Positions 310 to 53,333 of a stretch of 64,000 bases of DNA are shown here, piece by piece (the first letter of the stretch is position 1; each line of letters starts with the position of its first letter). The stretch is from assembly GCA_963675785.1 (NCBI GenBank), contig OY776562.1, forward strand, positions 1,536,001-1,600,000. The letters are read 5' to 3'. A program made the translations under genes and the position numbers. This DNA comes from Anaerolineae bacterium. Its GTDB lineage: Bacteria > Chloroflexota > Anaerolineae > UBA1429. The notes beneath the pieces are model-generated. The model was not told the origin of the DNA and ran no database searches. It saw only the letters and a list, made by a program, of their open reading frames with translations.

Positions 310-565
310 AAGACCTCCTTGGCAAGATTCACTAGGGAATATCCCCGCTAGTCATCAAATCGTCAGATCAAAGCAATACGAAACACAACTCACCTTAGCT
401 AAACGCCAAAACACAAAAGCCAAGTGTTCTAGTCCTCTCACACAAAAACATTATGTCTATCACTATACTCGAATCCTCTTCGATAATCAATAAAATGACT
501 TAAGACAAATAGCCTACTCGTATAGCCACCAAACTCGCCTTCCCCAACCTCACCCACCCTCACTT

Positions 566-636
566 GGAGGTACCCCATGCCCCTCACCCTGTCCGAACAC
601 CTTGCCCGCCTGCGCGCCACCCTCGGCGATTCCCCC
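566..636 (+). repeat. 71-bp direct repeat, copy 1 (identical to 1906-1976)
   Basis: ggaggtaccccatgcccctcaccctgtccgaacac...cggcgattccccc is identical at offset 1340. Confidence 0.97.
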
Positions 637-642
637 ACCTAA
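577..642 (+). pseudogene. truncated 5' fragment of the 1917-2546 gene (MPLTLSEHLARLRATLGDSPT*)
   Basis: Same RBS and first 20 codons as 1917-2546, then ACC TAA overlapping the stop of the antisense TPR gene. Confidence 0.85.
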
Positions 643-1646
643 TCTTTGGCCGCCAACTCTCTTTCGAGCGCAGAGATGCAGTCTGTTATCTCCTTCACCC
701 AGTCGTCGTACCCAAGGGTTTCTGCAATCGCCAGTGCCTGCTGGTAACACTCTTGGGCCTCGGCCAAGCTGTTCAGGGTATAGTACAAGCTGCCCATGCT
801 CACCAGTATATCCGCCTCACCCTCCAGATAGCCCACCTCGTGGGCGGTTTCTAGTGCCTGCTCATAGAGCTCCAGCGCATGATACCTCTCGGCACGATCT
901 TCGGTGTATCTTGCGCGGTTGGTGAGCGTCATCACCTCGCTAACCCCGTCGCCCGACTCTCGGGCCAGCGTGAGCGCTTGCTCATAGATTTCCAGAGCAT
1001 CTTCCTTTGAGCTCATCCAGGCGATGTTGTTGAGTGCCATAACCTCACCTGCCGAGTCGCCGATTTCACGAGAAATCGCGAGCGATTGCTCATAGGCGTC
1101 CAGGGCCTTGTCGTACTGCAACTGATCGAGGTGCACCTGGCCAATAGTGTTGAGCAGCATCGCTTGGATCCTCGGGATGCCCAGTTCACGGATGACGTCG
1201 AGCGACTGCTCATAGAATTCCAGGGCCTTGTCATACTCTTCCTGCAAATACCACGTAGCGGCAATGTTCCAGAGCGAGTCCCCCTCGGCGTATGGGTCGT
1301 CCGCCTCGCGGGCTAGCGTCAGCGCCCGTTGGTAATAGGCCCGCGCCTTGCGGTAGCGGCCCTCCTGGTAGGCGGCATTGCCGGCGGCGGCCACATCCTC
1401 AAACGTGTCGTTCATTGTGGTTATAGCGACTGTCGTGGTGGCAAGACCATCCAGTCTTTCGCTCACCCAGGCCCGTGGCCGGGGATCTGTGGCCATTCCT
1501 ATCAGAAACAGAACCACAAGCAGGGCCGCAAAAAGAATGATCCTCCTGAAAAGCCATGATTCGTGCTGCCAGCAGTAGCGTCGCCCTGGCACGGCTCGTC
1601 TTTTACATGCGTCACCATTGCTCATCAAGAACTGGCATTGTTTCAT
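639..1646 (-). CDS. TPR protein with N-terminal C-C-C-H zinc-finger-like motif and one TM helix
   Basis: CQFLMSNGDACKRRAVPGRRYCWQH, hydrophobic IILFAALLVVLFLIGM, then MalT-type TPRs (ALEFYEQSLDVIRELG). Confidence 0.85.
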   Translation of the reverse strand: MKQCQFLMSNGDACKRRAVPGRRYCWQHESWLFRRIILFAALLVVLFLIGMATDPRPRAWVSERLDGLATTTVAITTMNDTFEDVAAAGNAAYQEGRYRKARAYYQRALTLAREADDPYAEGDSLWNIAATWYLQEEYDKALEFYEQSLDVIRELGIPRIQAMLLNTIGQVHLDQLQYDKALDAYEQSLAISREIGDSAGEVMALNNIAWMSSKEDALEIYEQALTLARESGDGVSEVMTLTNRARYTEDRAERYHALELYEQALETAHEVGYLEGEADILVSMGSLYYTLNSLAEAQECYQQALAIAETLGYDDWVKEITDCISALERELAAKD

Positions 1647-1905: not shown

Positions 1906-1976
1906 GGAGGTACCCCATGCCCCTCACCCTGTCCGAACACCTTGCCCGCCTGCGCGCCACCCTCGGCGATTCCCCC
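1906..1976 (+). repeat. 71-bp direct repeat, copy 2 (RBS and 5' end of the intact gene)
   Basis: Identical to 566-636. Confidence 0.97.
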
Positions 1977-2546
1977 GCCGAACTCTGGACCGACGACCAG
2001 CTCACCGACTGCCTGCGCACCGCCCTGGCCCGCCTCGATCAGTCCCTTCCCAGCCAGCAGCAAGCCGTCCTCACCCTCATCCCCGGCACCCCCACCGTCG
2101 ATCTCTCCTCCCTCGGCCCGGACGTCCGCCCCTACGCCGTCGTCTACCCCTACGACCCCGCTTCCCCGCAAAATTTTCAAAACCGTGTCGGCTGGCACCA
2201 AATCGAGAATATACTCCATATACTCGGTATACTAACTATAGATAAAATGTTGCTTCTTTGTTACGAATGCCCCTACGCCCTCTCTGGCCTGGATGGCGCC
2301 ACCTCAACCACCCTCCCCGCCCCCTACGAAGCCGCCTTGCAGGTGGGCGCCTGCGCCCAGGCCTTCAACCTGGCCCTCATCGGGGCCGTCAACCGTGCCG
2401 CCGTCAACCGCCCCTACGCGTATTACCGTGAGGCAAAGTCCGCTGCCGAAAGCACCTTCACCCGCTGGCTCGACGCCCAGGTGCGCCAGCAGTGCCAATC
2501 CCTCAACAACACCCTCTCCTGGGAGCAAGGAGCGCACCATGGCTAA
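1917..2546 (+). CDS. phage head-tail adaptor/connector-like protein
   Basis: GGAGG RBS; LxxLRxxLGD...WTDDQL...AL and STTLP...LxxGA patterns typical of adaptor proteins; first gene of an overlapping 3-gene operon. Confidence 0.6.
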   Translation: MPLTLSEHLARLRATLGDSPAELWTDDQLTDCLRTALARLDQSLPSQQQAVLTLIPGTPTVDLSSLGPDVRPYAVVYPYDPASPQNFQNRVGWHQIENILHILGILTIDKMLLLCYECPYALSGLDGATSTTLPAPYEAALQVGACAQAFNLALIGAVNRAAVNRPYAYYREAKSAAESTFTRWLDAQVRQQCQSLNNTLSWEQGAHHG

Positions 2547-2757
2547 AGTCGCCCGAGCCCGCATCATCAGCTACAACGAATCCACCCACCGCGCCGCCTT
2601 GCTGCTGCTGGCCAACCCCCAGGTGCGCCTGGAGGGCGTGCCCGTAGTGCGCGGCCTCACCGGCCTGGCCCCCGGCGATCATGCCGTGGCCCTCGTCTGG
2701 CCCGAGGCCAGCGCCCTGGTGTTGGCCCTCTGGGATGAGAGCGAGGTGGGCGCATGA
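2539..2757 (+). CDS. small phage-like beta protein (72 aa, MAKVARARIISYNES...)
   Basis: AAGGAG RBS, ATG at 2539, overlaps both neighbours; LEGVPV motif resembles baseplate/gpV-N OB folds (inference). Confidence 0.6.
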   Translation: MAKVARARIISYNESTHRAALLLLANPQVRLEGVPVVRGLTGLAPGDHAVALVWPEASALVLALWDESEVGA

Positions 2758-4697
2758 GAACCCTATCACCGACCTTGCAGGCGGCGCTGGCCGCCAAGCA
2801 GCCTCGCCCGGTCGTCTCGCTGGAGGTGGAGGACCACCGCCGACGCCTGCGCCCCCTGGGCAGCGGCGCCGCCTCCTCGCTGCCCCACCACATGCTGGCC
2901 CTGGGCGGCTCCCTGCTGCGCTGCTGTCTGCAAAGCGGGGGCCTCTATTGGGCCGTGGTGGCCGATCCCGCGGAGGAGGCCAACTGGCCGCCTGTTTGGC
3001 AGCTTGCGGTCAGCGATGGCGCCATCCAAGCCGGAGATGTGGCCCTTGCCGTGGCCCCCGCCCAGCCCGACCGTTGGCTGGTGGCTTATCAACAGCTCAG
3101 CGGAGCCATCCGGGTGGCCTACACCGAGGATGCTGGCACCACCTGGGCCACCCCTTTTACCGCCGCCACCGCCGAGGTGGGTGCCAGCATCGCCCTGGCG
3201 GGCAGCCTGGCCCTCTACAACGTGGGCGGCACCCTCTATGCGCGGCCCTGCCGCAACGACCTGGGCGCCCCCATCGCCTGGAGCGGGGGTCGGGCGCTCA
3301 ACCCCGATTTGCCAGCCTTTACGGCCGTGCAGGGTTTGGCCGCTTGCCCAGAGCCCGGCACCGCCGCGGGTTACCTCTGCTTGGCCTGCCTGGACGGCGC
3401 CCTTTACGGCTTTCGCTACAACCTGGCGGCGGAGACCCTGAGCGATCTGGCTGCCCTGCTGCCCGGCGGCGATGCCCCCGCATCGGCCTTGGCCAAACGC
3501 TGCCTGCCCGCCCTGTGCATCCGCAACACAGAGGTGTATGCCACCGTGCTAGATGCCTTTGGCGACAGCGACCTGACCGCCTGGATGCAGCCGCTGCTGT
3601 TGGGCGGCGAGGTGAGCCGGTTCCCGCGGATGGCGCGCCTGGCCGCGCCGGATATGGCCTGCACCCAGGAGGAGCGGGTGGTGCCGGCGGTGCTGGCCAG
3701 CGGAGAGCGGGCGGGGTGGCTGTTCCTGGCAGATCAGGGGCGGGGGATGGTTAGCCCGGCCTACAGCGCCGAGGAGAACCGCCTGGGGGCGCTGGTGCCC
3801 AGCCAGTTGAGCCTGCAGGTGGATGAAGGGGGCTCGCGATTGAGCGTGCAGGTGCCCAACTGCGCGGGGTGGCTGACCCCGCAAGAGCTGCCAGCCTGCC
3901 AGCCCCTGGCAGAGGTGCGGGCCACCCGCGGACTGTGGACGGCCAGCGGCGCGGAGACCAGCCCACTGCCTCCCCATTACCTGACGCGCGTGGAGGTAAC
4001 GGCGGAGGTGGTGCAGCTGGAGGCAGTGGACGGTTTGGGGCTGCTGGCGCGGGTGCACCCGGCAGAGACGCTGGTGTACCAGGGGCGCACGCTGGGCCAC
4101 ATTGCAGAGGAACTGGCGGCCTTGGCGGGCCTGGAAGTGGTGGGCAGCAGTGACGCGCTAGAGATGATGGTTCCCCGCTATGCCCTGGCACCGAGCCGCT
4201 CGGCGGGTGAGGCACTGGTGGCCCTGCTGCGTGACTACGGCCTGGGCGCCCGTTGCGACACCGCTGGCCGCCTGCAGCTAATCGACCTGGGCGCGGCCAC
4301 TACCGCCAACCTGACGCTGGCAGCGGGCGACCTGCTGGATTGGCGCTGGTCCACCACCCTGCCAGAGGCCAACACGGTGCGGGTGCTGGGCGGCGAAGGC
4401 GACGGCCTGCTGTGGAGCGCGGGCACGGGCGCGGGGCTGAACAGCGGCCTGCTGCTGCCGCAGGTGCTCACCGATGAGACGCTGTGCAGCGAGGCGCAGG
4501 TGCGGGCCAGGGCCGAGGCCCTGTGGCAGGCGGCGCAAGCCAGCACTGGCGGTGCAGAGGTGGTGCTGCGCCTGCACCCCGCCCTAGAGTGGGGCGACGC
4601 GGTAAGTGTGAGGGGCGTGGTGCGGCGGGTGCAAGGGCTGAGGGAGAGGTGGGTGGCAGGAAAGAGGGTGTGGCAGAGTGTGCTGGTGTTGGGGTAG
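2754..4697 (+). CDS. phage tail/baseplate hub-like protein
   Basis: ATGA overlap; MRTLSxxL N-terminus, LEAVDGLGLL, NTVRVLG and HPALEWGDxV C-terminus typical of tail-hub proteins. Confidence 0.6.
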   Translation: MRTLSPTLQAALAAKQPRPVVSLEVEDHRRRLRPLGSGAASSLPHHMLALGGSLLRCCLQSGGLYWAVVADPAEEANWPPVWQLAVSDGAIQAGDVALAVAPAQPDRWLVAYQQLSGAIRVAYTEDAGTTWATPFTAATAEVGASIALAGSLALYNVGGTLYARPCRNDLGAPIAWSGGRALNPDLPAFTAVQGLAACPEPGTAAGYLCLACLDGALYGFRYNLAAETLSDLAALLPGGDAPASALAKRCLPALCIRNTEVYATVLDAFGDSDLTAWMQPLLLGGEVSRFPRMARLAAPDMACTQEERVVPAVLASGERAGWLFLADQGRGMVSPAYSAEENRLGALVPSQLSLQVDEGGSRLSVQVPNCAGWLTPQELPACQPLAEVRATRGLWTASGAETSPLPPHYLTRVEVTAEVVQLEAVDGLGLLARVHPAETLVYQGRTLGHIAEELAALAGLEVVGSSDALEMMVPRYALAPSRSAGEALVALLRDYGLGARCDTAGRLQLIDLGAATTANLTLAAGDLLDWRWSTTLPEANTVRVLGGEGDGLLWSAGTGAGLNSGLLLPQVLTDETLCSEAQVRARAEALWQAAQASTGGAEVVLRLHPALEWGDAVSVRGVVRRVQGLRERWVAGKRVWQSVLVLG

Positions 4698-4950
4698 TGT
4701 GTTTATGCGCTTCGCCAGGGACTGGACGCCACAAGCGGCGTCTGGTGTCTCCTGGCGGGGAAGAGCGTCCTGCGGACGCCAAGCGAGGAGAAGGTCATCG
4801 CTGAACGCGTGCACCAGGCTAAATGCGAACTCTGCGAGTTCGCTTGTGAGAAAGGATGCAAGAGCAAGCTTTGCATCCTTTCTCAAAGACAAGGCCAGGC
4901 CTTGTCAGTGCTACGATTGCAAAGCCTGCTCTGCGGGCAGGCTCTAGGAG
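4698..4950. repeat. REP-like palindrome mosaic A
   Basis: Stacked hairpins (gacgcc-acaagc-ggcgtc, cgaactc-tgc-gagttcg, gaaaggatgcaa..ttgcatcctttc, gacaaggcc-a-ggccttgtc with GTAG foot); modules recur at 7.1, 10.4-11.0 and 12.1 kb. Confidence 0.9.
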
Positions 4951-5071
4951 TTTGGGCGAGGAGAGAAGTGTAAGGGGCATGTTTATCGTTTCGCCAGAGA
5001 AGATTATCGCACAAGGAGAAAAAGTTAGTGCTGGCGAGAGTAAAGCGCTACTCGAACAAAACAGAGGGGCC

Positions 5072-6982
5072 TTAATCGGCCCCATCCAGTCGCTCATATT
5101 CGGCCTGATCAGCCGCAGCTAACCCATCTTCACCAAGAGCAGCATAGGCCAAGCTGCGATAATAATAGGCCAGAGAGAAATCCGGATCAAGTCGGATAGC
5201 CTTCGAATAGTCATCAACCGCTTGCTCTAGATCGCCTTGGTAAGCGTAAGCAACGCCTCTATTTAGATAAGCAGCTACATACTTGTAATCAAGATGAATA
5301 GCTTCAGTAGAGTCTCTAATAGCGCTCTCGCTGTCCCCCAGAGCTAAATACATAACACTGCGGTTAAAATAGCCTGTAGCATCTTCGGGCATAAGGCGGA
5401 TAGCTTCTGTGTAATCCTGAATTGCTTGCTCATAATTCTCTAGCATGCCTTGATAAAAAGCACGATTATGAAAAGCAGCAGCATAACCTGGCTCAAGCCG
5501 AATAGCCTCATCACAATCCTGAATAGCTAATTCGTATTCGCCTTGATCACCATGGGCAAGCCCACGATTGTAATAAGCTTCCACATAATCTGGTTCTAAA
5601 CAAATAGTTTCCGTGTAATCTTGAATGGCTTTATCGTATTCTCCTTGGATGTAATAAGTAACCCCACGGAAAAAATAGCTATATGCATGGGTAGGGTCTA
5701 GTTCAATAACCCTAGTGTAATCTAAGATAGCTCCATCATATTGAGCTTGCTCGCCTAAAACTGATCCGCGATAAAAATAAGCCTTTGCAAAATCAGGTTC
5801 AAGTTGAATAGCTTCTGAAAAGTATTGAATAGCTTGCTCATAGTCATTCTGGAGAAAATAGATATAGCCACATTGATAATAAGCCATTGCACTATTTGCC
5901 TGCAGGTGAATGGTACTGTCACAATCTTGAAGTGCTTGATCATTATTGCCCTGGCTGCTATATGCAATCCCACGATTCAAGTAAGCTGAAGCATAATTAG
6001 GTTCAAGCTGTAAGGCTTTTGTATATGCAGTAATCGCTTGCGCAGAATTTCCCGTGGTTTGGTAAAGCCAGCCCAGCTGAAAATAAACTTCCTCTGAATT
6101 ATCTGGCACCGAGCTTTCAACTATTGAGTCACTAGCTCTCTTAATGGCCTGAAGAGCATTTGTATAATCCATAACAGAAATATAAGACTGACCAATGCCG
6201 AAAAAAGAGAGATAGGGTAGCTGTGTCGACAAATCATCTTGAGACAGCGTGCAAAAACAATACGTACTGGGGGTGGCGAGGCCACTGTACTTGATATCAC
6301 TAATCGGCGTCGCCGGATCAAAATCTGAATCTACGAGATTCAGGTAATTCACAGTGATTCGCGAACCTGTATCACTCCCCCAGATTACCATCCTTGCGCC
6401 ATAACGCTGCCCTAAGGCTTCGGCCCCCTCACGATCGTTCATCTCTAAATTGAGGGCATGGCGCTCAACACGAAAATCAGACAATCCTAAAGATTCGGAA
6501 GCATTCGCGATTTCGCGATAAATTTCACTATCGACATCTGTATCTATTGCCCCTTTAGCAACATCAAAATCTGCAATAAGAATCAGCACTCCGCCTTCAC
6601 TCGCCGGCTTCACCACGGTGAGCAATGGATCCCACTCTCGCCATAGCTCCTTGGGAGATTTCCAACCCAATGAAAAGCCAGCTATGACTATCACCGCAAT
6701 GAGCAAAGGTAATGCTATGCCCAGGTAAAAAGTCCAACGATGTTTGGGGACATCTGGCGGGACGGGCGTGGGAGCACTTGATGTAGTATTCTGGTGCAGC
6801 CAAGCCTTTATTGCCGTTTCTGGTATGTGCCAGCATCCACGGCTATCTTTTTCAACACCCGGAAGATGGCCATCACGACAGTAACGACGTACGACATCTT
6901 CTGCCACACCCATACGTCGAGCAGCTTCAGCCACATCAAGATACATCAATTCTTCAGACGTATTTTCTGTGCTCTCAGCCAT
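5072..6982 (-). CDS. excisionase-type HTH + TM + multi-TPR protein
   Basis: YLDVAEAARRMGVAEDVVRRYCRDGHLPG (HTH_17-like), TM FYLGIALPLLIAVIVIAGF, about 10 AYxNRG-type TPRs; lower GC. Confidence 0.9.
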   Translation of the reverse strand: MAESTENTSEELMYLDVAEAARRMGVAEDVVRRYCRDGHLPGVEKDSRGCWHIPETAIKAWLHQNTTSSAPTPVPPDVPKHRWTFYLGIALPLLIAVIVIAGFSLGWKSPKELWREWDPLLTVVKPASEGGVLILIADFDVAKGAIDTDVDSEIYREIANASESLGLSDFRVERHALNLEMNDREGAEALGQRYGARMVIWGSDTGSRITVNYLNLVDSDFDPATPISDIKYSGLATPSTYCFCTLSQDDLSTQLPYLSFFGIGQSYISVMDYTNALQAIKRASDSIVESSVPDNSEEVYFQLGWLYQTTGNSAQAITAYTKALQLEPNYASAYLNRGIAYSSQGNNDQALQDCDSTIHLQANSAMAYYQCGYIYFLQNDYEQAIQYFSEAIQLEPDFAKAYFYRGSVLGEQAQYDGAILDYTRVIELDPTHAYSYFFRGVTYYIQGEYDKAIQDYTETICLEPDYVEAYYNRGLAHGDQGEYELAIQDCDEAIRLEPGYAAAFHNRAFYQGMLENYEQAIQDYTEAIRLMPEDATGYFNRSVMYLALGDSESAIRDSTEAIHLDYKYVAAYLNRGVAYAYQGDLEQAVDDYSKAIRLDPDFSLAYYYRSLAYAALGEDGLAAADQAEYERLDGAD

Positions 6983-7101
6983 GTCTCCCCTCCTGAAGGT
7001 CTACTTGATCCATTATAGTAGACTTTTACCTATAAATCTATGCAATAAAGTCCTGGGGGCTATCATTTTGTAGAGAAATGGTACACGTAGGAATTGATTC
7101 C

Positions 7102-7395
7102 TCGTAAGGGGTGTATTTATGCGCTTCGCCAGGGACTGGACGCCGCAGGCGGCGTCTGACGTCTCCTGGCTAGGCCAAGCGCGTCCTACGGACGCCGAGT
7201 GGGGAGAAGGTTATCGCCAAAGGAAAGCAAGCCTAGCCAAAATGCACGTCAGACTGAATTGCCTTGCTACGCAGGGCTAGGCGCTGCGGTAGCAAAGTCT
7301 CTGCGAGGCTCTAGGAGTTAGCCTTGCTGATACGAGCCTCCGACCAAAGGTCGGAGGGTTGGCTAACCTAGCACTGGGGTTTTGTCTAGTGCGCC
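7102..7395. repeat. REP-like palindrome mosaic B
   Basis: Shares the leader tttatgcgcttcgccagggactggacgcc with 4702; also cctccgacc-aaa-ggtcggagg. Confidence 0.9.
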
Positions 7396-10404: not shown

Positions 10405-11002
10405 TACGGGGTGTGTTTATGCGGTTCGCCAGGGATTTGCGATCACGGCGATGCAACGCTAGGGGAAAGCGTCCTGCGGACGCCGAGCAAGGAGAAAACT
10501 AAAGCTCACTAGCGCACTAGGCTAAATGCGAACTCTACGAGTTCGCTTGTGAGAAAGGATGCAAGAGCAAGCTTTGTCAGTGCTACATATGCAAACCCTG
10601 CCCTACGGGCAGGCTCTAGGAGCTCGTCTTGCTGATACGAGCCTCCGACTTACTCCCCGCCCAGCGTCCGCAGGACACCTTTACTAGCCAGGCGATGTCA
10701 GGCGCCGCTTGCGGCGTCCAATCCCTGGCGATACAGATAAACACACCCCTTACGATTGTTTGTTGCAGATACCTAGACGCATCGGGCTGAACCCCGATGC
10801 TACATATGCAAACCCTGCCCTACGGGCAGGCTCTAGGAGTTCGTCTTGTTGATATGAGCCTCCGACCAAAGGTCGGAGGGTTGGCTAATGTAGCATTGAC
10901 AAAGCCAAGGCTTTGTCGAGCGAACTCGTAGAGTTCGCATTTAGCCTGAGGCGTTGTAGATGGCGCTTTTAGTCACACCGCCAGGGATTGGACGCCGCAG
11001 CC
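10405..11002. repeat. REP-like palindrome mosaic C, containing an inverted leader copy
   Basis: Leader at 10412 and inverted copy about 10662-10754; GTAG-footed palindromes at 10779-10803 (-) and 10890-10917 (+); duplicated tgctacatatgcaaaccctgccctacgggcaggctctaggag. Confidence 0.9.
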
Positions 11003-11007
11003 CCTTA

Positions 11008-12024
11008 TCACCCCAACCTACCTTGCAACAGGACAATCTCAGCCTCGATGAGGCGGGAGAGATCGTGGAGGCCAATGGCGTTGTCGAGTTGGAGGGCCTG
11101 CTGCAGGTTCTCCAGAGCCTGCGGGTAGCGGCCCTGGGCCTCGTAGAGAAGGCCGATATTGGCGAGGACGGCGGCTTCGCCCGCGCGGTTGCCCACCTCA
11201 CGATAGATCGATAGAGCCTGCTGGTAGTTCGGCAAGGCCTGTTCGTACTGTCCCTGACCAAAGTGGACCATGGCGATGTTGTTGAGGGCGTGGGCCTCTC
11301 CGGCGCGATCGCCTATCTCGCGCAGAATGAGGAGAGCCTGGGTATCGTGCTCCAAAGCCTGTTCGGGCAGACCCAGGTTGTCGCAAGCGCTGCCGATGCT
11401 ATCGAGGGCATTGGCCTCGCCCCGTTGATCGCCCAGATCACGCATGATTCGCAAATCCTGCTGATAGCCCACCAACGCTTGTTCGTAACGCCCCTGCGCC
11501 TCGTACACCCCGGCGATGTTGTGGAGCGTGCCAGCCTCACCCGAGAGGTCACCGACCTCATGGCGGATCTCCAAAGCCTGGCGATAGTACGCTAGCGCCC
11601 GCTCATAGTCGTCGAGGTTGTAATAGGCGACGCCAATGTCGTTGAGGGTAAGGCCCTCTCCTGCGCGGTCGCCCACCTCACGACGAAGGAGCAGGGCCTG
11701 CTGGTAGTATTCCAGGGCCTGGGCATAATCCCCCTGGCTGTCATAGATGCCGCCGATGCTGTTGATGGTGGCAGCCTGGCCAACACGATCGCCCATCTCG
11801 CGCATCACCGCCAGGGCCTGTTGGTAGAGGTCCAGGGCACGAGCATAGGCGCACAGGTAGTCGTACATGCTGGCCATGTTGTGAAGGGCGGTGCTCTCCT
11901 CCTGGCGGTTGCCCTGGGCGCGGGCGAGTTCCAGGTTTTTGCTAAAGTGTGACAGGGCCTCGGGGTAGTTGCCCTGGCGATAGGCGGACAGCGCTGCTTG
12001 TTCGTGGCGGTCGTATTTTGACAT
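11008..12024 (-). CDS. MalT-type TPR repeat protein
   Basis: Repeated ALxYYQQALxIxREVGDRxGE units. Confidence 0.9.
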   Translation of the reverse strand: MSKYDRHEQAALSAYRQGNYPEALSHFSKNLELARAQGNRQEESTALHNMASMYDYLCAYARALDLYQQALAVMREMGDRVGQAATINSIGGIYDSQGDYAQALEYYQQALLLRREVGDRAGEGLTLNDIGVAYYNLDDYERALAYYRQALEIRHEVGDLSGEAGTLHNIAGVYEAQGRYEQALVGYQQDLRIMRDLGDQRGEANALDSIGSACDNLGLPEQALEHDTQALLILREIGDRAGEAHALNNIAMVHFGQGQYEQALPNYQQALSIYREVGNRAGEAAVLANIGLLYEAQGRYPQALENLQQALQLDNAIGLHDLSRLIEAEIVLLQGRLG

Positions 12025-12099
12025 GTGCCCCTGCTTTATGTTGGATGGCTAGGACTATAGCTGAAACGGGTGGGGGTTTCAATGAAGGGGGGGAGGGGG

Positions 12100-12174
12100 T
12101 GTGGTGCGATTCGCCAGGGATTTGCGATCACGGCGATGCGACGCTAGGACAGGCGCGTCCTGCGGACGCCAAGC
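12100..12174 (+). repeat. repeat leader copy D
   Basis: ttcgccagggatttgcgatcacggcgatgc..cgctagg..gcgtcctgcggacgcc matches about 10425-10484. Confidence 0.85.
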
Positions 12175-12274
12175 ATGGAGTAAGTTGACGTCTATGCGTA
12201 TCCCTTGCAATCACGCTGGGGCTGGCTAATATACGACGCAAGTGCATTCAACCAACGGCAAAGGAACGGCGATT

Positions 12275-13543
12275 ATGAGTGAGAGTCTCAGCCCATGGCA
12301 AGCGGGCGAGTTGGATATCCACCACATTAGCACGGGGCGCGGCGAAAGCACGTTTTTCATTTTGCCGGACGGCACGACGATGCTGATCGATGCCGGGGAG
12401 ATGGACCCCACCAACCCACGCACGACGGGGCCGCGTAGCACGCCGGCACGTCCCAGCGACGAGCGGCTGCCCTACGAATGGCTGGTGCGCTATATCCAGC
12501 GGGTGCATCCGAATCCGCAGGCACCGACGTTGGATTACGCGGTATTGAGCCACTTTCACGACGATCATCTGGGGATGGTGCATCCACTCTCTCCGTTGGC
12601 CGAGTGCGGAGCCTATTCTCTGACGGGTCTGGTCGGTGTGGGGGATGCGTTCTCTATCGGCACCCTGCTCGATCGCGGGTATCCCACTTATGATTACCCG
12701 ATGGGGTTGGAGGATCCGCGCCTGCTGGCCTGGCTGGAGGGGAGCTCCAAGTCTCAAGAGGAATACGGCAAGCAAAAGCGGACTATCGACAATTATCGGG
12801 CGTTCATCGCCTGGCAGCAGGATCATCAAGGGATGAAAGCGGAACGGTTCCGCGCAGGGAGCAAGACGCAGATCAAGCTGCAGCACGCGCCGGAGCGATA
12901 TCCCGGCTTTGAGGTGCAGAACATTGCGGTGAACGGCGAGGTGTGGACGGGGCACAACGAGGAGACTGAGAAGCGGATTCCGCCGGTGGAAACGTTGAGG
13001 CCACAGGATATGCTCAACGAGAACCTCTACAGCACGGTGATGGTGATGCAGTATGGGCGATTCCGCTATTACACGGGCGGCGACATTGCCGGGAACGTGG
13101 ACCTGGGTGAACCCAAGTGGGTGGATTTGGAGACGCCGGTGGCACGCGTGGTGGGCGCGGTGGACGTGATGAAGATGAACCACCACGGCAACCGCAGTTC
13201 GTCCAATGCGTTTTTCGTGAGCACATTGCAACCACGGGTGGTGACGCAGAACGTGTGGTGTTCTAACCATCCGGGCGAGGACGTGCTGCGACGGCACGTC
13301 TCTAGGTATTTGTACCCCGGCGACCGCGACCTGTTCGCCAACGACATGTCGGAGGCCAACCGCGCAGTCATTGGGCCGCTAGTGGATCGCTCTTATGCCA
13401 GTATGCACGGGCACACGGTGCTGCGTGTAGCTGAGGGGGGCGAATCCTATAGGGTGTACACTGTCGAAGATCGGGATGAGTCGATGCGGGTTACCGGCGT
13501 GTTTGGGCCGTACGAGGCGCACACCGGCTCGACCGAGGATTAG
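12275..13543 (+). CDS. MBL-fold metallo-hydrolase (ComEC/Rec2-like)
   Basis: GRGES, LIDAG, SHFHDDHLG, GGD and NHHG motifs. Confidence 0.88.
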   Translation: MSESLSPWQAGELDIHHISTGRGESTFFILPDGTTMLIDAGEMDPTNPRTTGPRSTPARPSDERLPYEWLVRYIQRVHPNPQAPTLDYAVLSHFHDDHLGMVHPLSPLAECGAYSLTGLVGVGDAFSIGTLLDRGYPTYDYPMGLEDPRLLAWLEGSSKSQEEYGKQKRTIDNYRAFIAWQQDHQGMKAERFRAGSKTQIKLQHAPERYPGFEVQNIAVNGEVWTGHNEETEKRIPPVETLRPQDMLNENLYSTVMVMQYGRFRYYTGGDIAGNVDLGEPKWVDLETPVARVVGAVDVMKMNHHGNRSSSNAFFVSTLQPRVVTQNVWCSNHPGEDVLRRHVSRYLYPGDRDLFANDMSEANRAVIGPLVDRSYASMHGHTVLRVAEGGESYRVYTVEDRDESMRVTGVFGPYEAHTGSTED

Positions 13544-50713: not shown

Positions 50714-51352
50714 TCATGATACCCTCCCTTTACTACCATGCTTGGCAGTCAGACGCTGACGCAAACGTTTGCGCGCTGAATAGATACGGCAATAAGCGGC
50801 GTTGGGGTTGAGTAATTGCAGCTCTCGGGCAATTTGCACCCCAGAATAGCCCATGACCACACGCATATACAGAGCGCGGCGATCCAAAGCTGGTAGCTCT
50901 GCCCAGGCCTCGTGCAGGGCATCCTCCAGCTCGGAAGAATCCGCCTCGGGCACCTCAATGAGTGCCTCCAGGGCATGGTATGACAGGCGTTGAGCGTCAC
51001 CCTCACCCACATAGGCATCGAGGGCCAACACAGTAGGATCGACAGGCTCTTCGGGTGGCTGCCATAAACGATAGGGCTTGCGACGGATGATGCGCCGAGC
51101 ACCGCCCCACAGCACGCTACGCCAGCGCTCCCACAGCGGCTCGAGGTCATCGCAATTGCCGCCCTCTTGCAGCCAACGGCGCACGGTATCATGAAACTCG
51201 ATATAGAGATCTTGCAAGAGGTCATCGCTGGTGTAAAGGCCGCCATCGCCGCGATTGAGGCGGTGCATGGTGCGCCCACAACAGCGCAGGGCCGTGGCGC
51301 GGGCCTGCGGCCAGAGCTGATTGACGATTCGGGTCAGAGCATTGGTAGGCAT
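50714..51352 (-). CDS. ECF-like sigma-70 family factor
   Basis: DDLLQD (region 2); LP..DRR...GYS..QIA..L......RIYSARKRLR (region 4.2); AAAGGAG RBS. Confidence 0.8.
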   Translation of the reverse strand: MPTNALTRIVNQLWPQARATALRCCGRTMHRLNRGDGGLYTSDDLLQDLYIEFHDTVRRWLQEGGNCDDLEPLWERWRSVLWGGARRIIRRKPYRLWQPPEEPVDPTVLALDAYVGEGDAQRLSYHALEALIEVPEADSSELEDALHEAWAELPALDRRALYMRVVMGYSGVQIARELQLLNPNAAYCRIYSARKRLRQRLTAKHGSKGRVS

Positions 51353-51414
51353 GTTGCTGCTCCTTTCGTATCGGCCTCACGGCCGATCTTCATGCAACAC
51401 GTGCAAACACAAAC

Positions 51415-52887
51415 TTAGTATTGTGCTGACAGGGGGTCGGAGACCTCGATCACGGCGGATTCGGTGGGCAAAGACACCGCACGAGCCTCCAACACGGCAC
51501 ACAAAGCTGCCGAAATGAGCAGGTCATCGTGAATGGTGGGATCAACCACACCCCAGCGCATGCGCTTGAGGGCGCCGTCATAGACCTCGTAGGTGGCGGC
51601 GCGCACCTGCTGCCAAAAGGCGGCATACTGCTCGCTGCCGTCATCGGCGTGATCGAGAAAACGGCCCGACGAGCAGATACCGAGAAATCCCCAACCGAGG
51701 TCGCTCTTGACGCCAGCGTTGAAAGTGACGGGATTGATCCGTTGTCCCAGATGACGCTGCAGCGAAGAAGCCAAGCCAGCGCCTAAACCGGTGGCATCCA
51801 CCACCAAGGTTTGGGCCTGCCAGCAGTCGGCAAGGGCCAACAGCACGCCCAACAGCTCATCCTGGTAGCGGCCCGTCCACAAGTGGCGATCCATCACCAG
51901 ATAGCGGTTCATGCCTTGCTCAGTCTGGTCCAGTTCAATAACGGTGACGGCGGTGCTATCTTTGCGAGGCTGAGCCTCGCGCAGGGCCGCATCGCGCAAG
52001 GATTCCTCGGCGCCGCCCGCTACGTCGATAAGCAGAGCGTAACACCGCCCTTCGGTGGGGCCGCGTTGACGCAGGTGGCTGCCTTGCATCAAGGCACGCA
52101 CATCCACGGAAAACATACCAGCGGCCTCGTCGATCTCTTCCAGGCAGTATTGGGTCTTGATGAGGGGATGCTGACGGCCCAAGCGCTCGATCTCGCCGCG
52201 CACAAAGGTGCCATAGGCGGGCACGCACTCTGCAACCTGCTGCCAAGGCACACGAAAGACGCGCAGTTGGCCATCGCGCAGCTCTTGCGCCTCCAAAACG
52301 CGCATGGTGCGGGCCAGCAGAGTGTTACTCGTCCAGGCGGTGCCCCAGAGCACGGTGGTGGCATTGGTGCTGGCCGCCATGGGCCGAAAGTCGCGGTTCC
52401 AGATGGTCTCATCGATGTTCTGGGCCTCGTCGGCCTCTAGCAACAGATCGGCGGTGGCGCCCACCACGTTGGCCTGCAGTCCTGCCGAATAAAAGGAGGC
52501 CCTGGCCAGGCCTACACGCAGCATACGCCCCTGTTCGCGCACAGGTTTGAGGCCGGGGAGGCGGCTGCCCTGCAGCAGGGATTCCAAGCGCATGAGGCTG
52601 GTGTAGGCCTGGGGCTGAAAGGTGGGCGCGGCTTTGACAATAGTGCCGCCCCGTCGATAGGCGCGAGCCAGCAGAAAAGCCTCTACATGGGAGGCGGTCT
52701 CGTTTTTGCCGGCCTGGCGTGACATCATCACAGCAAAGGTGCGACCTTGACCAGTAAGCGCCGAGTGGACGATGGCAGCCGCTGGTTCGACTTGATAAGG
52801 GCGCAAGGTGCGGCCCAGCACTATACGAGAAAAAAGCATCGGGCTGGCTAACACGCGGCGCAAGGCGTTATGGCTAATGTCGGGCAC
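51415..52887 (-). CDS. terL: phage terminase large subunit
   Basis: LRPYQ, Walker A SRQAGKNET, Walker B LEADEAQ, GTAW coupling motif, RNaseH acidic motifs IDVAG, VVDATGLG, HDD. Confidence 0.9.
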   Translation of the reverse strand: MPDISHNALRRVLASPMLFSRIVLGRTLRPYQVEPAAAIVHSALTGQGRTFAVMMSRQAGKNETASHVEAFLLARAYRRGGTIVKAAPTFQPQAYTSLMRLESLLQGSRLPGLKPVREQGRMLRVGLARASFYSAGLQANVVGATADLLLEADEAQNIDETIWNRDFRPMAASTNATTVLWGTAWTSNTLLARTMRVLEAQELRDGQLRVFRVPWQQVAECVPAYGTFVRGEIERLGRQHPLIKTQYCLEEIDEAAGMFSVDVRALMQGSHLRQRGPTEGRCYALLIDVAGGAEESLRDAALREAQPRKDSTAVTVIELDQTEQGMNRYLVMDRHLWTGRYQDELLGVLLALADCWQAQTLVVDATGLGAGLASSLQRHLGQRINPVTFNAGVKSDLGWGFLGICSSGRFLDHADDGSEQYAAFWQQVRAATYEVYDGALKRMRWGVVDPTIHDDLLISAALCAVLEARAVSLPTESAVIEVSDPLSAQY

Positions 52888-53266
52888 GGCCAGCCTCCTC
52901 GTCCAATTCTTTCAACACTTGGTCGAACAAGGTATCGAGTCCGGCATCGGTGGGTTGTAGTTGCTTGCGAGCTCGCAACAGTTGGATCACGCGTGCGGTC
53001 GAATCGTTCCAGGCACGCAGATACTGCGCCGGGCTGGTTGAACGAGAATCTCCCGCGCGGCGCAGTTCGGCGATCCAGTCGCAGAAATAACGGCGAGCCT
53101 GGAGTAGATCGACCAACTCTTGCTCGATGACGCAGCTGTCATCGTCCTCAGCCAAGGCACGTGCGAGCGCCTCCGTGCCCTCCGAGGCGCGCATCAACGC
53201 GGCGAGGGCATCATGTTGAGCTGCATGGCGTCCTTGCTGCCCGGCATTCCGAGTCTGTTTGGACAT
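52874..53266 (-). CDS. helical protein, putative terminase small subunit
   Basis: GGAGG RBS before MSKQTR; overlaps the terL start; position and helical C-terminus only. Confidence 0.5.
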   Translation of the reverse strand: MSKQTRNAGQQGRHAAQHDALAALMRASEGTEALARALAEDDDSCVIEQELVDLLQARRYFCDWIAELRRAGDSRSTSPAQYLRAWNDSTARVIQLLRARKQLQPTDAGLDTLFDQVLKELDEEAGRARH

Positions 53267-53284
53267 GCATCCTCCTTCATGAAT

Positions 53285-53300
53285 TAGAACATTTGTTCTA
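53285..53300. promoter_or_regulatory. LexA (SOS) box TAGAAC-ATTT-GTTCTA
   Basis: Perfect GAAC-N4-GTTC palindrome, the Gram-positive/Chloroflexota-type LexA site, between the -10 and the RBS. Confidence 0.8.
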
Positions 53301-53304
53301 GTCC

Positions 53305-53333
53305 ATAATATGTCCAAACCAGGGGAATGTCAA
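53305..53333 (-). promoter_or_regulatory. sigma70 promoter of the terminase operon (TTGACA-N17-TATTAT)
   Basis: tgtcaa 53328-53333 and ataata 53305-53310 on +, 17-bp spacer. Confidence 0.8.

What the first reader, a model, noticed from the sequence alone, without database searches (positions are those of the whole stretch)
1917..4697. Isolated, intact head-tail/tail mini-operon 47 kb from the terminase
Seen: three translationally coupled ORFs (209, 72 and 647 aa) without frameshifts, flanked by TPR accessory genes rather than other phage genes. Inference from motifs: adaptor/connector, small OB-fold and tail-hub-like proteins. From memory, not verified, they resemble a phage-derived gene set conserved in Dehalococcoidia. 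Intact structural genes scattered in the chromosome fit a domesticated particle (GTA or tailocin-like) better than prophage decay. They are likely targets of the sigma factor at 50714-51352.
Basis: partly seen in the sequence, partly recalled or inferred. Interest (0 to 1): 0.72.

Follow-up and report, generated by a model that had tools for sequence, protein, structure and literature searches.

The report
Conserved phage-derived particle genes in Anaerolineae
The three genes are the neck and tail-tip half of an old, host-inherited set of phage particle genes shared by one family of Anaerolineae bacteria, and it may be a new kind of gene transfer agent switched on by DNA damage.

Summary
The three overlapping ORFs exist exactly as described: an SU10-type head-tail adaptor, a 72-aa OB-fold protein, and a 647-aa beta-propeller plus gp27/gp44-type tail hub.

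They are not isolated. A portal, a protease-capsid fusion and a small membrane protein lie 6.4-9.6 kb to the left, just outside the window. A 6.4-kb insertion (Lamassu-like LmuB gene, TPR gene) cuts them off. Both TPR genes look like strain-variable insertions.

The six-gene structural module and a separate module (small helical protein, TerL, ECF-like sigma) co-occur in 25 of 36 genomes of one Anaerolineae family. In the six genomes where both sit on one contig they are 10-140 kb apart. G000 has no recombinase gene nearby.

Both modules track the host RpoB tree (0 of 2000 permutations reach the observed agreement). In the one congeneric pair tested, dN/dS is 0.18-0.49. A perfect LexA box precedes the TerL operon in 8 of 8 family loci.

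Best reading: a domesticated, SOS-induced, short-tailed DNA-packaging particle, GTA-like. No particle, packaged DNA or sigma-dependent promoter was shown.

The taxon is Anaerolineae, not Dehalococcoidia. The scan had noted the TerL operon and the TPR duplication on this same genome only.

The parts
557..642 (+). Left copy of an 86-nt duplication: RBS plus the first 21 codons of the adaptor gene, ending in TAA that abuts the stop of the antisense TPR gene. It marks the old 5' end of the adaptor gene before the TPR1 insertion.
   Evidence: blastn gives 95.3% identity over 86 nt to 1897-1982, and only these two copies exist in the genome. Sequence read. Repeat family D1.
639..1646 (-). TPR1, a 335-aa TPR protein. 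It is an insertion inside the module and not part of it.
   Evidence: TPR_12 E 1.2e-31. It is bracketed by the 86-nt duplication. One variant contig in run X6 has a 27-letter loose end before position 1871. By eye this resembles the DNA left of the left repeat copy (~507-533, read), so TPR1 appears absent there.
1917..2546 (+). Head-to-tail adaptor, 209 aa, SU10 type.
   Evidence: PF24175 SU10_adaptor E 9.6e-9, 36.4 bits against cut-off 27, residues 4-180 on profile 2-181 of 194. Orthologues (fam3) follow the capsid gene in 7 of 7 genome regions clustered; blastp E<=1e-3 hits in 5 of 6 relatives.
2539..2757 (+). 72-aa OB-fold protein. Candidate base of a central spike or plug sitting on the hub.
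   Evidence: AF2 pLDDT 92.9, five-stranded barrel. Foldseek finds generic OB folds (IF1, E 3e-3) and the OB domains of Mu baseplate chain 9ki1_V (7.5e-3), P2 gpV (0.03) and PVC spikes; no hit reaches E<=1e-3. A conserved family with short (65-77 aa) and long (107-312 aa) forms sits between adaptor and hub.
2754..4697 (+). 647-aa tail-tip protein: N-terminal beta-propeller (about residues 1-335) fused to a gp27/gp44/VgrG-type hub (about 340-647).
   Evidence: AF2 pLDDT 87.4, pTM 0.84. Foldseek PDB: eCIS, Mu gp44, VgrG and gp27 hubs at E 1e-17 to 1e-9 over about 330 columns; six-bladed lectin 4d52 at 7e-9. phrog_177 baseplate hub 6.1e-5 at residues 436-521. The family has 54 representatives at E<=1e-3 among 1.84e9 proteins.
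4697..4767 (+). Hairpin-forming dispersed repeat directly after the hub stop. Likely transcript end or REP-like element. Also the left border of the TPR2 cassette.
   Evidence: 86% copy at 7111-7181. Further copies at genome 1512797, 1086610, 1546746 and elsewhere. RNA fold -47.3 kcal/mol, z -2.45.
5072..6982 (-). TPR2, a 636-aa HTH_17 plus TPR protein. A strain-variable cassette, not part of the module.
   Evidence: Pfam. GC3 0.36, z -3.2 against long ORFs of the genome. Contigs of runs X5 and X6 join 4751 to 7170 and skip it.
53284..53333 (-). Promoter TTGACA-N17-TATTAT followed by the palindrome CTAGAAC-N4-GTTCTAA (LexA/Cheo-type box), 32 nt before the start of the small helical gene.
   Evidence: sequence. 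The box is present upstream in 8 of 8 family TerL loci. The same type of box sits at the organism's own lexA gene.
52874..53266 (-). 130-aa helical protein, first gene of the packaging operon. Candidate small terminase by position only.
   Evidence: Homologue present in 10 of 11 TerL regions; the G019 copy was not called separately. No Pfam or PHROG family. Most relatives carry an N-terminal Cys/His motif that G000 lacks.
51415..52887 (-). Large terminase (TerL), 490 aa.
   Evidence: phrog_38 'terminase large subunit' 5.8e-9 and phrog_5909 2e-5. Terminase_6C E 0.0011, below cut-off. 54-66% identical full-length matches in same-family relatives; present in 26 of 36. Invariant GKNE and LLEADEAQ blocks in 11 sequences.
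50714..51352 (-). 212-aa ECF-like sigma factor, last gene of the packaging operon.
   Evidence: Sigma70_r4_2 27.5 bits against cut-off 25.7. phrog_1740 2.3e-7. A profile of 8 orthologues hits region 4 of ECF sigmas in the PDB (SigE 1.5e-7). Follows TerL in 8 of 8 family loci and 0 of 3 other loci.

Best explanation
The adaptor/OB/hub operon is the distal half of a six-gene structural module. The gene order is portal, prohead-protease/major-capsid fusion, small one-pass membrane protein, SU10-type adaptor, OB-fold protein, propeller-hub. This module belongs to a phage-derived element that one family of Anaerolineae has inherited vertically and keeps under selection. A second module elsewhere on the chromosome (small helical protein, TerL, ECF-like sigma) supplies packaging and control.

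Proposed working:
1. DNA damage removes LexA from the box on the TerL-operon promoter.
2. TerL, its small partner and the sigma factor are made.
3. The sigma factor turns on the structural operon.
4. Portal and capsid fusion build a procapsid, and the protease part matures it.
5. TerL fills it with DNA.
6. The adaptor ring closes the portal and carries a very short tail made of the OB protein and a hub trimer.
7. The hub's propeller domains bind the target cell surface.

The two modules lie 10-140 kb apart and no integrase or replication gene was found with them. The particle therefore cannot carry the whole element, so it would act like a gene transfer agent.

Shown: gene identities and folds, conservation, co-occurrence, co-divergence with the host, dN/dS below 1 in one congeneric pair, and the conserved LexA box. 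Inferred: every step of expression, assembly, packaging and transfer.

In this genome a 6.4-kb insertion (Lamassu-like LmuB and neighbours, then TPR1) has split the module. An 86-nt duplication leaves the adaptor gene with an intact 5' end.
For: 1. Module defined by comparison. Portal, capsid fusion, adaptor, small protein and hub are the only gene families shared by all 7 genome regions compared. A small membrane protein follows the capsid gene in 5 of 7.

2. Identities.
- Portal: phrog_10963, 3.6e-29.
- Capsid fusion: Phage_capsid_4 8.5e-30; phrog_4523 'major head and protease protein' 1.1e-44.
- Adaptor: PF24175, above cut-off.
- Hub and OB folds: see parts.

3. Second module. Helical protein, TerL and sigma occur together in 8 of 8 family loci.

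4. Co-occurrence in 36 same-family genomes: capsid 27, TerL 26, both 25, capsid only 2, TerL only 1 (a contig-end fragment), neither 8.

5. Separation. Where both modules sit on one contig they are about 10, 17, 44, 47, 128 and 137 kb apart (G008, G028, G020, G000, G019, G014).

6. Co-divergence over 21 genomes.
- Spearman of pairwise distances: RpoB-TerL 0.76, RpoB-capsid 0.68; 0 of 2000 permutations as high.
- FastTree trees share 8 of 18 (TerL) and 7 of 18 (capsid) bipartitions with RpoB; 0 of 2000 label shuffles reach this, maximum 4.

7. dN/dS for G020 against G027: portal 0.18, TerL 0.23, capsid 0.27, hub 0.34, adaptor 0.39, helical 0.41, sigma 0.49; dS 0.31-0.43. RpoB is 0.05.

8. LexA box. 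A perfect GAAC-N4-GTTC palindrome lies right after the -10 in 8 of 8 family TerL loci. Among 24 other TerL loci with enough upstream DNA, 2 have a match (L070 at -334; L036 at -1101) and 22 have none. The same type of box sits on G000's lexA gene and between an AlkZ glycosylase gene and an O6-methylguanine methyltransferase gene.

9. No mobility genes near. G000 has only two tyrosine recombinases, at 1.19 and 3.05 Mb, and no serine recombinase. No tRNA gene lies in the 32 kb around the module.

10. Insertions at three different module positions (G000 and G020 between capsid and adaptor, G028 between portal and capsid) have left the full-length frames open.

11. GC is above host RpoB in all 7 genomes. 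Passages read in PMC7360931 report elevated GC for RcGTA-like clusters.
Against: - No particle, packaged DNA or transcript was seen. No RNA run holds the stretch.
- No lysis enzyme, tail fibre, tube or tape-measure gene is known for the element, so the gene set may be incomplete or the particle may need help.
- Presence is patchy inside genera for the capsid query (g3 1 of 4, g8 2 of 4, g20 2 of 3). This also fits gain and loss of a mobile element.
- Flanking genes are not conserved between genera.
- Related elements in other Anaerolineae and in IMG/VR contigs have TerL next to portal and capsid, like a phage. G004 carries a second, contiguous and longer copy.
- Some copies have in-frame stops. 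The G033 hub stop was verified. Capsid matches in G007 and G036 were flagged and not checked.
- In G000 the structural genes keep GC3 of 0.78-0.86 against a genome mean of 0.60, while TerL-module GC3 is near the mean. That is odd for long residence and differs from RcGTA, where GC1 and GC2 carry the excess.
- No sigma-type promoter shared by the portal or adaptor upstream regions was found.
- The Mantel and tree tests use related genomes, and three congeneric groups drive part of the signal. Phages confined to one host lineage could mimic it.
- dN/dS was measured in only one pair, on frames extended to the upstream stop.
Confidence: 0.6

Rival explanations
1. A lineage of small temperate phages or phage satellites specific to Anaerolineae (capsid-forming, helper-dependent for the missing functions). 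These would persist in, and co-diverge with, their hosts. The G000 copy would be one such element, rearranged and carrying defence cargo.
For: - Contiguous TerL-portal-capsid-adaptor(-hub) versions exist (L070, L080, L084-L086, L103, L107, L108, L110, L111), as do portal-capsid-adaptor-TerL versions (L081, L088, L089, L096-L099, L130).
- 53 IMG/VR contigs carry a capsid relative.
- Presence is patchy within genera.
- G004 and G008/G028 hold second TerL copies.
- A Lamassu-like gene sits inside the module, as is common in prophages and satellites.
- SOS control is the classic prophage switch.
Against: - G000 has no integrase (tyrosine or serine) near either module. No replication or repressor gene was recognised in the family loci.
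- The two modules are 10-140 kb apart in six genomes, so they cannot excise or be packaged as one unit.
- Trees and distances follow host RpoB across genera.
- The IMG/VR contigs closest to G000 are short, at most about 25 kb. The two inspected (L098, L107) were read only as ORF tables, without family annotation.
Confidence: 0.2
2. A domesticated particle with a use other than gene transfer. Examples: an SOS-induced killing or adhesion particle (bacteriocin-like), or a device for releasing DNA or cell contents into the community. DNA packaging would be incidental.
For: - The tail tip is a hub of the kind that carries membrane-piercing spikes, plus an OB domain like the spike bases of Mu and P2.
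- SOS-induced phage-tail bacteriocins are a well-known class (established knowledge, recalled).
- The hub is the fastest-diverging part, at 27-33% identity against 49-66% for capsid and TerL, as expected of a surface-recognition protein.
Against: - Intact TerL, portal and capsid genes under purifying selection imply that filled heads matter. Known tail bacteriocins lack heads.
- There is no sheath, tube or toxin domain.
Confidence: 0.12
3. A decaying prophage remnant with no present function. Its pieces would survive by chance, split by later insertions.
For: - The module is interrupted by 6.4 kb of foreign DNA and flanked by variable cassettes.
- No tail shaft, fibre or lysis genes are recognisable.
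- One relative has an in-frame stop in the hub.
- The composition is foreign-looking.
Against: - All eight recognisable genes are full-length in G000.
- Orthologues are kept in 25-27 of 36 family genomes at 27-66% identity, a divergence at which unselected frames would be gone.
- dN/dS is 0.18-0.49.
- The LexA box is conserved to the base in 8 of 8 loci.
- An 86-nt duplication bracketing the TPR1 insertion leaves the adaptor gene with an intact 5' end.
Confidence: 0.08

Closest known systems
Gene transfer agents of the RcGTA type (Alphaproteobacteria)
   Same: Phage-derived head, neck and tail genes held in the host chromosome, spread over more than one locus, inherited with the host and slowly evolving. 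They have elevated GC relative to the host (passages of PMC7360931 read). They are under host regulatory control and have no integrase.
   Different: - A different phylum, with no sequence relationship tested.
- Here there are six structural genes with no tube, tape measure or Dit. The tail tip is a propeller-hub on a podovirus-type adaptor.
- Control is by a LexA box and an element-encoded ECF-like sigma.
- The GC excess includes GC3, whereas in RcGTA it lies in GC1 and GC2.
- Particle production and random packaging are not shown here.
Podophage SU10 (Kuravirus) neck: portal, adaptor, nozzle, tail needle
   Same: The adaptor belongs to the Pfam family built on the SU10 adaptor. The tail lacks tube and sheath genes, as in short-tailed phages. 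[quoted passage not shown]
   Different: No nozzle or needle homologue was found. The protein after the adaptor is a gp27/gp44-type hub, which is typical of long-tailed phages and contractile systems. The head protein is a protease-capsid fusion.
Mu gp44 / P2 gpD / T4 gp27 / VgrG hubs with gp45 / gpV / gp5 spikes
   Same: The fold of the C-terminal ~310 residues of the 647-aa protein (Foldseek E 2.6e-16 to 1wru, TM 0.66 on the target). An OB-fold protein is encoded beside it, and its weak structural matches include the Mu and P2 spike proteins.
   Different: - The sequence match to Pfam Gp44-like_2nd is below cut-off (14.1 against 27 bits).
- An N-terminal six-bladed propeller is fused on.
- The 72-aa OB protein has no beta-helix or apex.
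- There are no baseplate wedge, tube or sheath genes.
Capsid-forming phage-inducible chromosomal islands (cf-PICIs)
   Same: A compact set of capsid, portal, connector and terminase genes without tail-shaft genes (recalled, no paper read here).
   Different: cf-PICIs carry an integrase, regulators and a replication module, and they move between strains. Here no integrase was found, the two modules are far apart, and inheritance follows the host.

Membership tests
Gene transfer agent (functional class) | Phage-derived structural genes resident in the host genome, inherited vertically and under purifying selection | tested here: met
   Mantel correlations 0.76 and 0.68, with 0 of 2000 permutations as high. 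Trees share 8 of 18 and 7 of 18 bipartitions with RpoB. dN/dS 0.18-0.49 in one congeneric pair. Caveat: kin are not independent and flanks are not syntenic between genera.
Gene transfer agent (functional class) | Particles package host DNA rather than the element's own genome, and cannot transmit the whole element | not testable with these tools
   Only indirect evidence: the two modules are 10-140 kb apart in six genomes. Head capacity and packaged DNA are unknown.
Gene transfer agent (functional class) | No integrase, excision or replication module | tested here: met
   PF00589 matches only at 1.19 and 3.05 Mb; PF00239 has no match in G000. No tRNA gene nearby. Replication genes were not searched by family.
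Gene transfer agent (functional class) | Production under host regulatory control | tested here: inconclusive
   A conserved LexA-type box in 8 of 8 loci, with the same box type at lexA. Binding and induction were not tested.
Pfam PF24175 SU10_adaptor | Score above the curated gathering threshold over most of the profile | tested here: met
   36.4 bits against 27; profile positions 2-181 of 194.
gp27/gp44/VgrG baseplate-hub fold | Structural match over the whole hub fold | tested here: met
   Foldseek probability 1.00, E 1e-17 to 1e-9, about 330 aligned columns, TM 0.6-0.73 on ~325-aa hub targets. Model pLDDT 87.4.
gp27/gp44/VgrG baseplate-hub fold | Sequence membership (Pfam Gp44-like_2nd, PHROG baseplate hub) | tested here: not met
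   PF22255 scores 14.1 bits against cut-off 27. phrog_177 at 6.1e-5 covers only residues 436-521.
Central spike proteins (P2 gpV, Mu gp45, T4 gp5) | N-terminal OB domain followed by a trimeric beta-helix or apex | tested here: inconclusive
   OB fold present, but the best matches are generic (IF1, 3e-3). Mu chain 9ki1_V 7.5e-3, gpV 0.03. G000 has no C-terminal part. 8 of the 18 aligned family members are long forms of 107-312 aa; their folds were not examined.
ECF (group 4) sigma factors | Sigma region 4 and region 2 | tested here: inconclusive
   Region 4 is met: Sigma70_r4_2 27.5 against 25.7 bits, and profile hits to ECF sigmas in the PDB. Region 2 is not detected by any model. A conserved DDLLQDLFLEF block resembles region 2.2 by recall only.
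Intact temperate prophage | Contiguous genome with integrase/att, lysogeny, replication, lysis and complete tail modules | tested here: not met
   Modules are split. No recombinase nearby. Pfam scans of the neighbours at L005:8037-19935 returned no phage family besides portal and capsid.
Capsid-forming PICI / phage satellite | Integrase plus regulatory and replication genes next to the packaging module | tested here: not met
   Same searches as above. Flanks of the 7 regions share no such gene family.
Large terminase (TerL) | ATPase and nuclease domains recognised by curated models | tested here: inconclusive
   phrog_38 5.8e-9. Pfam Terminase_6C 19.5 against 22.6 bits. No PDB sequence hit, even with a profile. 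Invariant GKNE and DEAQ blocks read as Walker A and B by recall.

The most novel reading that the evidence does not exclude
An independently evolved gene transfer agent of Chloroflexota. It would be a minimal particle that packages DNA and has a hub-tipped short tail. It would be encoded by two separated loci, switched on by LexA release and driven by its own ECF-like sigma factor. It would be maintained by one Anaerolineae family since the family's origin.
Probability: 0.3. Interest if true: 0.9.

Novelty: new variant of a known kind. Interest (0 to 1): 0.72.

Why it matters
By recall, experimentally supported gene transfer agents come from only a handful of lineages.

A host-inherited, SOS-wired particle system in Anaerolineae would add a new phylum and a new architecture: a podovirus-type adaptor carrying a gp27-type hub, with no tail shaft, and with its own sigma factor. 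By recall, Anaerolineae are abundant in anaerobic digesters and sediments.

It would also give a testable route for gene exchange in a group that is hard to culture and has few known phages.

The regulatory prediction (LexA box, then sigma, then structural operon) and the structural prediction (adaptor ring, OB protein, hub trimer) can each be tested with ordinary methods.

Even if it proves to be a satellite or phage lineage, the conserved split layout and the conserved operator are unusual.

Tried and rejected
Promoter for the sigma factor.
- Exact k-mers shared by 22 portal upstream regions gave only the ribosome-binding site.
- A Gibbs sampler gave a weak 30-nt pattern: information 14.6 against 11.7-12.2 in 4 shuffles. 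I do not count this as shown.
- An ECF-like GGAAC-N15-CGTT upstream of the adaptor gene (about 1781-1806, read) has a counterpart in only 1 of 22 portal upstream regions (L041, at -225) and none in G000's.

LexA box at the structural operon. An exact box lies upstream of the portal in 5 of 42 distinct loci, plus one with a single mismatch. It is absent from G000. Direct SOS control of this operon is therefore rejected for G000.

Binding of the OB protein to the hub. The complex job returned no answer. I draw no conclusion.

Expression. No RNA holder was listed. I draw no conclusion.

Sequence searches that found nothing.
- TerL, alone and as a profile, against the PDB.
- The 72-aa protein, the 130-aa helical protein and the 57-aa membrane protein against Pfam; the 72-aa protein and the 147-aa long form of the helical ORF against PHROGs.

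DGR reading of the repeats. Rejected: the mismatches are not adenine-specific and the repeats are non-coding.

G004 second copy and L070. Pfam of 10 neighbouring ORFs gave only a Laminin_G_3 domain and host enzymes, so no fuller phage model was obtained.

Word-index protein search. It found only 2 hub relatives. The full HMMER scan found 54.

Literature. Four searches found no report of such an element:
- Anaerolineae + gene transfer agent
- Chloroflexi + gene transfer agent + capsid
- Anaerolineae + prophage + terminase + portal
- Chloroflexota / domesticated / phage-like particles
Subscription journals are not covered. I asked for no supplementary files.

Rows dropped.
- The congruence tests use the 21 genomes that had RpoB, TerL and capsid. 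G018, G022, G030 and G046 were left out for partial or missing genes.
- G014's capsid is in two pieces.
- dN/dS for the small protein failed because tblastn found no hit.

Full report
OBSERVATION.

The + strand carries three uninterrupted ORFs: 1917-2546 (209 aa), 2539-2757 (72 aa) and 2754-4697 (647 aa). They overlap by 8 nt (ATGGCTAA) and 4 nt (ATGA).

The block is 67-73% G+C in 250-nt steps. Its flanks are 38-50% and the genome mean is 53.6%. It is the only 3-kb window of the 3.2-Mb genome at or above 66%.

Both neighbours are TPR genes on the other strand. The window is G000:C1:1536001-1600000.

WHAT THE THREE PROTEINS ARE.

The 209-aa protein matches Pfam SU10_adaptor above the curated cut-off (36.4 against 27 bits, almost full profile length).

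The 647-aa protein has a rare family: 54 cluster representatives at E<=1e-3 among 1.84 billion, nearly all 645-680 aa.
- With 32 aligned members, AlphaFold2 gave pLDDT 87.4 and pTM 0.84.
- Foldseek against the PDB puts baseplate hubs first, over about 330 columns: Algoriphagus and Anabaena eCIS at 1e-17 and 2e-16, Mu gp44 at 2.6e-16, then VgrG, PVC, pyocin R2 and T4 gp27.
- Six-bladed propeller lectins follow (4d52, 7e-9). BFVD gives phage tail proteins.
- Together with the PHROG hub match at residues 436-521, I read it as an N-terminal propeller (about 1-335) fused to a gp27/gp44-type hub (about 340-647).

The 72-aa protein folds as a five-stranded OB barrel (pLDDT 92.9).
- Its structural matches are weak and mostly generic (IF1, 3e-3).
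- They include the OB domains of a Mu baseplate chain (9ki1_V, 7.5e-3), P2 gpV (0.03) and PVC spikes. No hit reaches 1e-3.

NOT ISOLATED.

The 20 kb left of the window (L005) also has a high-GC stretch. It holds three genes:
- a 381-aa portal (phrog_10963, 3.6e-29);
- a 706-aa ORF whose C-terminal 300 residues are Phage_capsid_4 (8.5e-30), and which as a whole matches 'major head and protease protein' (phrog_4523, 1.1e-44);
- directly after it, a 57-aa one-pass membrane protein.

In six relatives fetched around their hub genes, the same families occur in the same order: portal, capsid fusion, adaptor, small protein, hub. These are the only families shared by all seven regions. The small membrane protein is recognisable in 5 of 7.

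In G000, 6359 nt separate the membrane-protein gene from the adaptor gene. That stretch holds:
- a 415-aa unknown;
- a 107-aa ORF and a 773-aa SMC-like ATPase that matches Lamassu LmuB (PADLOC 5.8e-31), both low in GC3;
- a 71-aa ORF;
- TPR1.

G020 has a different ~5-kb insertion at the same junction. G028 has ~1.9 kb between portal and capsid.

THE TPR GENES ARE LATER INSERTIONS.

An 86-nt stretch holds the ribosome-binding site and the first 21 codons of the adaptor gene. It is repeated at 557-642 (95% identity, the only two copies in the genome). The left copy runs into a stop that abuts the end of TPR1.

A 71-nt hairpin repeat follows the hub stop and recurs at 7111-7181 and at other places in the genome.

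Public contigs of two other studies join 4751 to 7170, leaving TPR2 out. One variant contig's 27-letter loose end before 1871 resembles, by eye, the DNA that in G000 lies left of the left repeat copy. TPR1 therefore appears absent there too.

THE SECOND MODULE.

The 490-aa ORF at 51415-52887(-) is a large terminase by PHROGs (5.8e-9). It is just under the Pfam cut-off.

In 8 of 8 same-family loci it is preceded by a small helical protein and followed by a ~210-300-aa protein. The C-terminus of that protein is sigma region 4 (Pfam above cut-off; a profile of 8 members hits ECF sigmas in the PDB, best 1.5e-7).

Second TerL copies in G008 and G028, and the copy in another family (G048), lack the sigma gene.

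DISTRIBUTION.

Among 36 genomes of the same family:
- hub found in 19;
- TerL in 26;
- capsid fusion in 27.

25 genomes have both TerL and capsid, 2 capsid only, 1 a TerL fragment only, and 8 neither. In 24 genomes of other families of the class the counts are 0, 7 and 4. The hub is the most diverged gene, and in at least two capsid-positive loci (L037, L039) the contig ends before it.

All 45 related loci in the species-level genome collection carry Anaerolineae, Anaerolineales, Chloroflexota or (one) Chloroflexia titles. None is labelled Dehalococcoidia.

Where both modules lie on one contig they are about 10, 17, 44, 47, 128 and 137 kb apart.

INHERITANCE AND SELECTION.

For the 21 genomes with RpoB, TerL and capsid:
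- Pairwise protein distances correlate with Spearman 0.76 (RpoB-TerL) and 0.68 (RpoB-capsid); 0 of 2000 matrix permutations are as high.
- FastTree trees share 8 of 18 and 7 of 18 bipartitions with the RpoB tree, including clades that join genera; 0 of 2000 label shuffles exceed 4.

Between the congeners G020 and G027, Nei-Gojobori dN/dS is 0.18-0.49 for seven genes at dS 0.31-0.43. RpoB gives 0.05.

G000 has only two tyrosine recombinases, both more than 340 kb away, and no serine recombinase. No tRNA gene lies near.

REGULATION.

I tested it.
- A perfect (T/C)AGAAC-N4-GTTC(T/G)A lies immediately after a -10 element, 25-54 nt before the start of the helical gene, in 7 of 7 loci with a defined start. 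An eighth locus (G019) has it within 1 kb upstream of TerL.
- Among 24 other TerL loci with enough upstream DNA, 2 have a match (L070 at -334; L036 at -1101, far upstream) and 22 have none.
- G000 has 39 GAAC-N4-GTTC sites in all. One sits on the start of its lexA gene (Peptidase_S24 plus LexA_DNA_bind). One lies between an AlkZ-like glycosylase gene and an O6-methylguanine methyltransferase gene.

I therefore read the box as this organism's SOS operator.

The structural operon has no such box in G000. An exact one precedes the portal in 5 of 42 distinct loci.

I could not establish a promoter motif for the sigma factor. The sigma-to-operon link rests on the fixed association of the sigma gene with TerL and on co-occurrence.

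MECHANISM PROPOSED.

DNA damage releases LexA. The helical protein, TerL and the sigma factor are made. The sigma factor drives the portal-to-hub genes. A procapsid forms and matures, and TerL fills it. The adaptor closes the portal and carries the OB protein and a hub trimer, whose propellers bind the target surface.

The element's genes are split over distant loci and no integrase or replication gene was found with them. The particle would therefore move host DNA rather than itself, which is GTA-like. Only the genomic facts are shown. Every biochemical step is inferred.

AGAINST THIS READING.

- No particle, packaged DNA or transcript is known.
- No lysis enzyme, fibre or tail shaft is identified.
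- Presence is patchy within genera, and flanks are not syntenic between genera.
- Contiguous, phage-like versions exist in other lineages and in IMG/VR. G004 has a second, longer copy.
- The hub of G033 has an in-frame stop.
- In G000 the structural genes keep GC3 of 0.78-0.86 against a genome mean of 0.60, while the TerL module's GC3 is near the mean. I cannot explain this. In RcGTA-like clusters the GC excess lies in codon positions 1 and 2 (PMC7360931, passages read).
- The congruence tests use related genomes and are partly driven by three congeneric groups.

COMPARISON AND NOVELTY.

- It works most like an RcGTA-type gene transfer agent, but has no shown membership of any known GTA family.
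- Its neck is of the SU10 podophage type.
- Its tip is of the Mu gp44/gp45 type.
- It fails the tests for an intact prophage and for a capsid-forming satellite.

Four literature searches found no description. I rate it a new variant of a known kind.

Noticed in passing
L005:15728-19935 (window -4272 to -65): A Lamassu-like set sits inside the particle module, all on the minus strand. It comprises a 773-aa SMC-type ATPase matching LmuB (PADLOC 5.8e-31), a 107-aa ORF and a 415-aa unknown. The ATPase has GC3 0.43 (z -2.3); the 415-aa gene is GC-rich.
   Followed up: partly
window 4697-4767, 7111-7181, about 10646-10746; genome 1512797, 1086610: A dispersed hairpin repeat family brackets single genes. 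Contigs from two other studies join 4751 to 7170 with 22 other letters between, so the TPR2 cassette is present or absent between strains.
   Followed up: partly
window 639-1646 (N-terminus of TPR1), and the helical proteins of relatives (L027, L029, L030, L032, L033): Most relatives' TerL-partner proteins start with a C-x6-7-C...C-x2-H motif (MPRNP.KR.C..PGC.AWA..G...C.SH). G000's own copy lacks it. A look-alike Cys/His motif opens the inserted TPR1 protein. Seen by eye only.
   Followed up: no
L005:about 12010-12330 (upstream of the portal start): About five short stem-loops in a row fill the 300 nt before the portal ribosome-binding site (sequence printed).
   Followed up: no
L199 (G004:C264:30001-46160): A second, more distant copy in one relative. 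TerL, portal and capsid are adjacent and are followed by six further co-directional ORFs, one with a Laminin_G_3 domain, before an adaptor-like region. It may be a fuller phage relative.
   Followed up: partly
window 50714-53266 versus 1917-4697 and L005:12356-15371: In G000 the structural genes have GC3 of 0.78-0.86 (z 2.6-3.7). The TerL-module genes have GC3 of 0.63-0.72 (z 0.5-1.7). GC1 and GC2 are raised in both. The two modules may have different histories in this lineage.
   Followed up: partly
L043, L054, L063, L048, L047, L038, L042, L059 (small-protein orthologues): 8 of the 18 aligned small-protein family members carry a 40-240-aa C-terminal extension after the OB domain (107-312 aa in total). 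The other 10, including G000's, stop at 65-77 aa.
   Followed up: no
G000 genome 2621444, 2347819, 2498100, 2567492, 1388396: Other strong LexA-type boxes mark a candidate SOS regulon: lexA itself, AlkZ-like glycosylase with O6-methylguanine methyltransferase, a DUF3800 protein, an RNase_H_2-domain protein and a PAS protein.
   Followed up: partly
L005:10090-11711: A 206-aa RelA_SpoT-domain protein (Pfam 5.9e-13; PADLOC candidate PDC-S33 2.4e-10) and a 334-aa unknown lie on the minus strand just upstream of the portal gene.
   Followed up: no
L201 (G033:C163), hub gene: One in-frame stop in the N-terminal propeller part of the G033 hub orthologue. This is either decay or an assembly error.
   Followed up: partly
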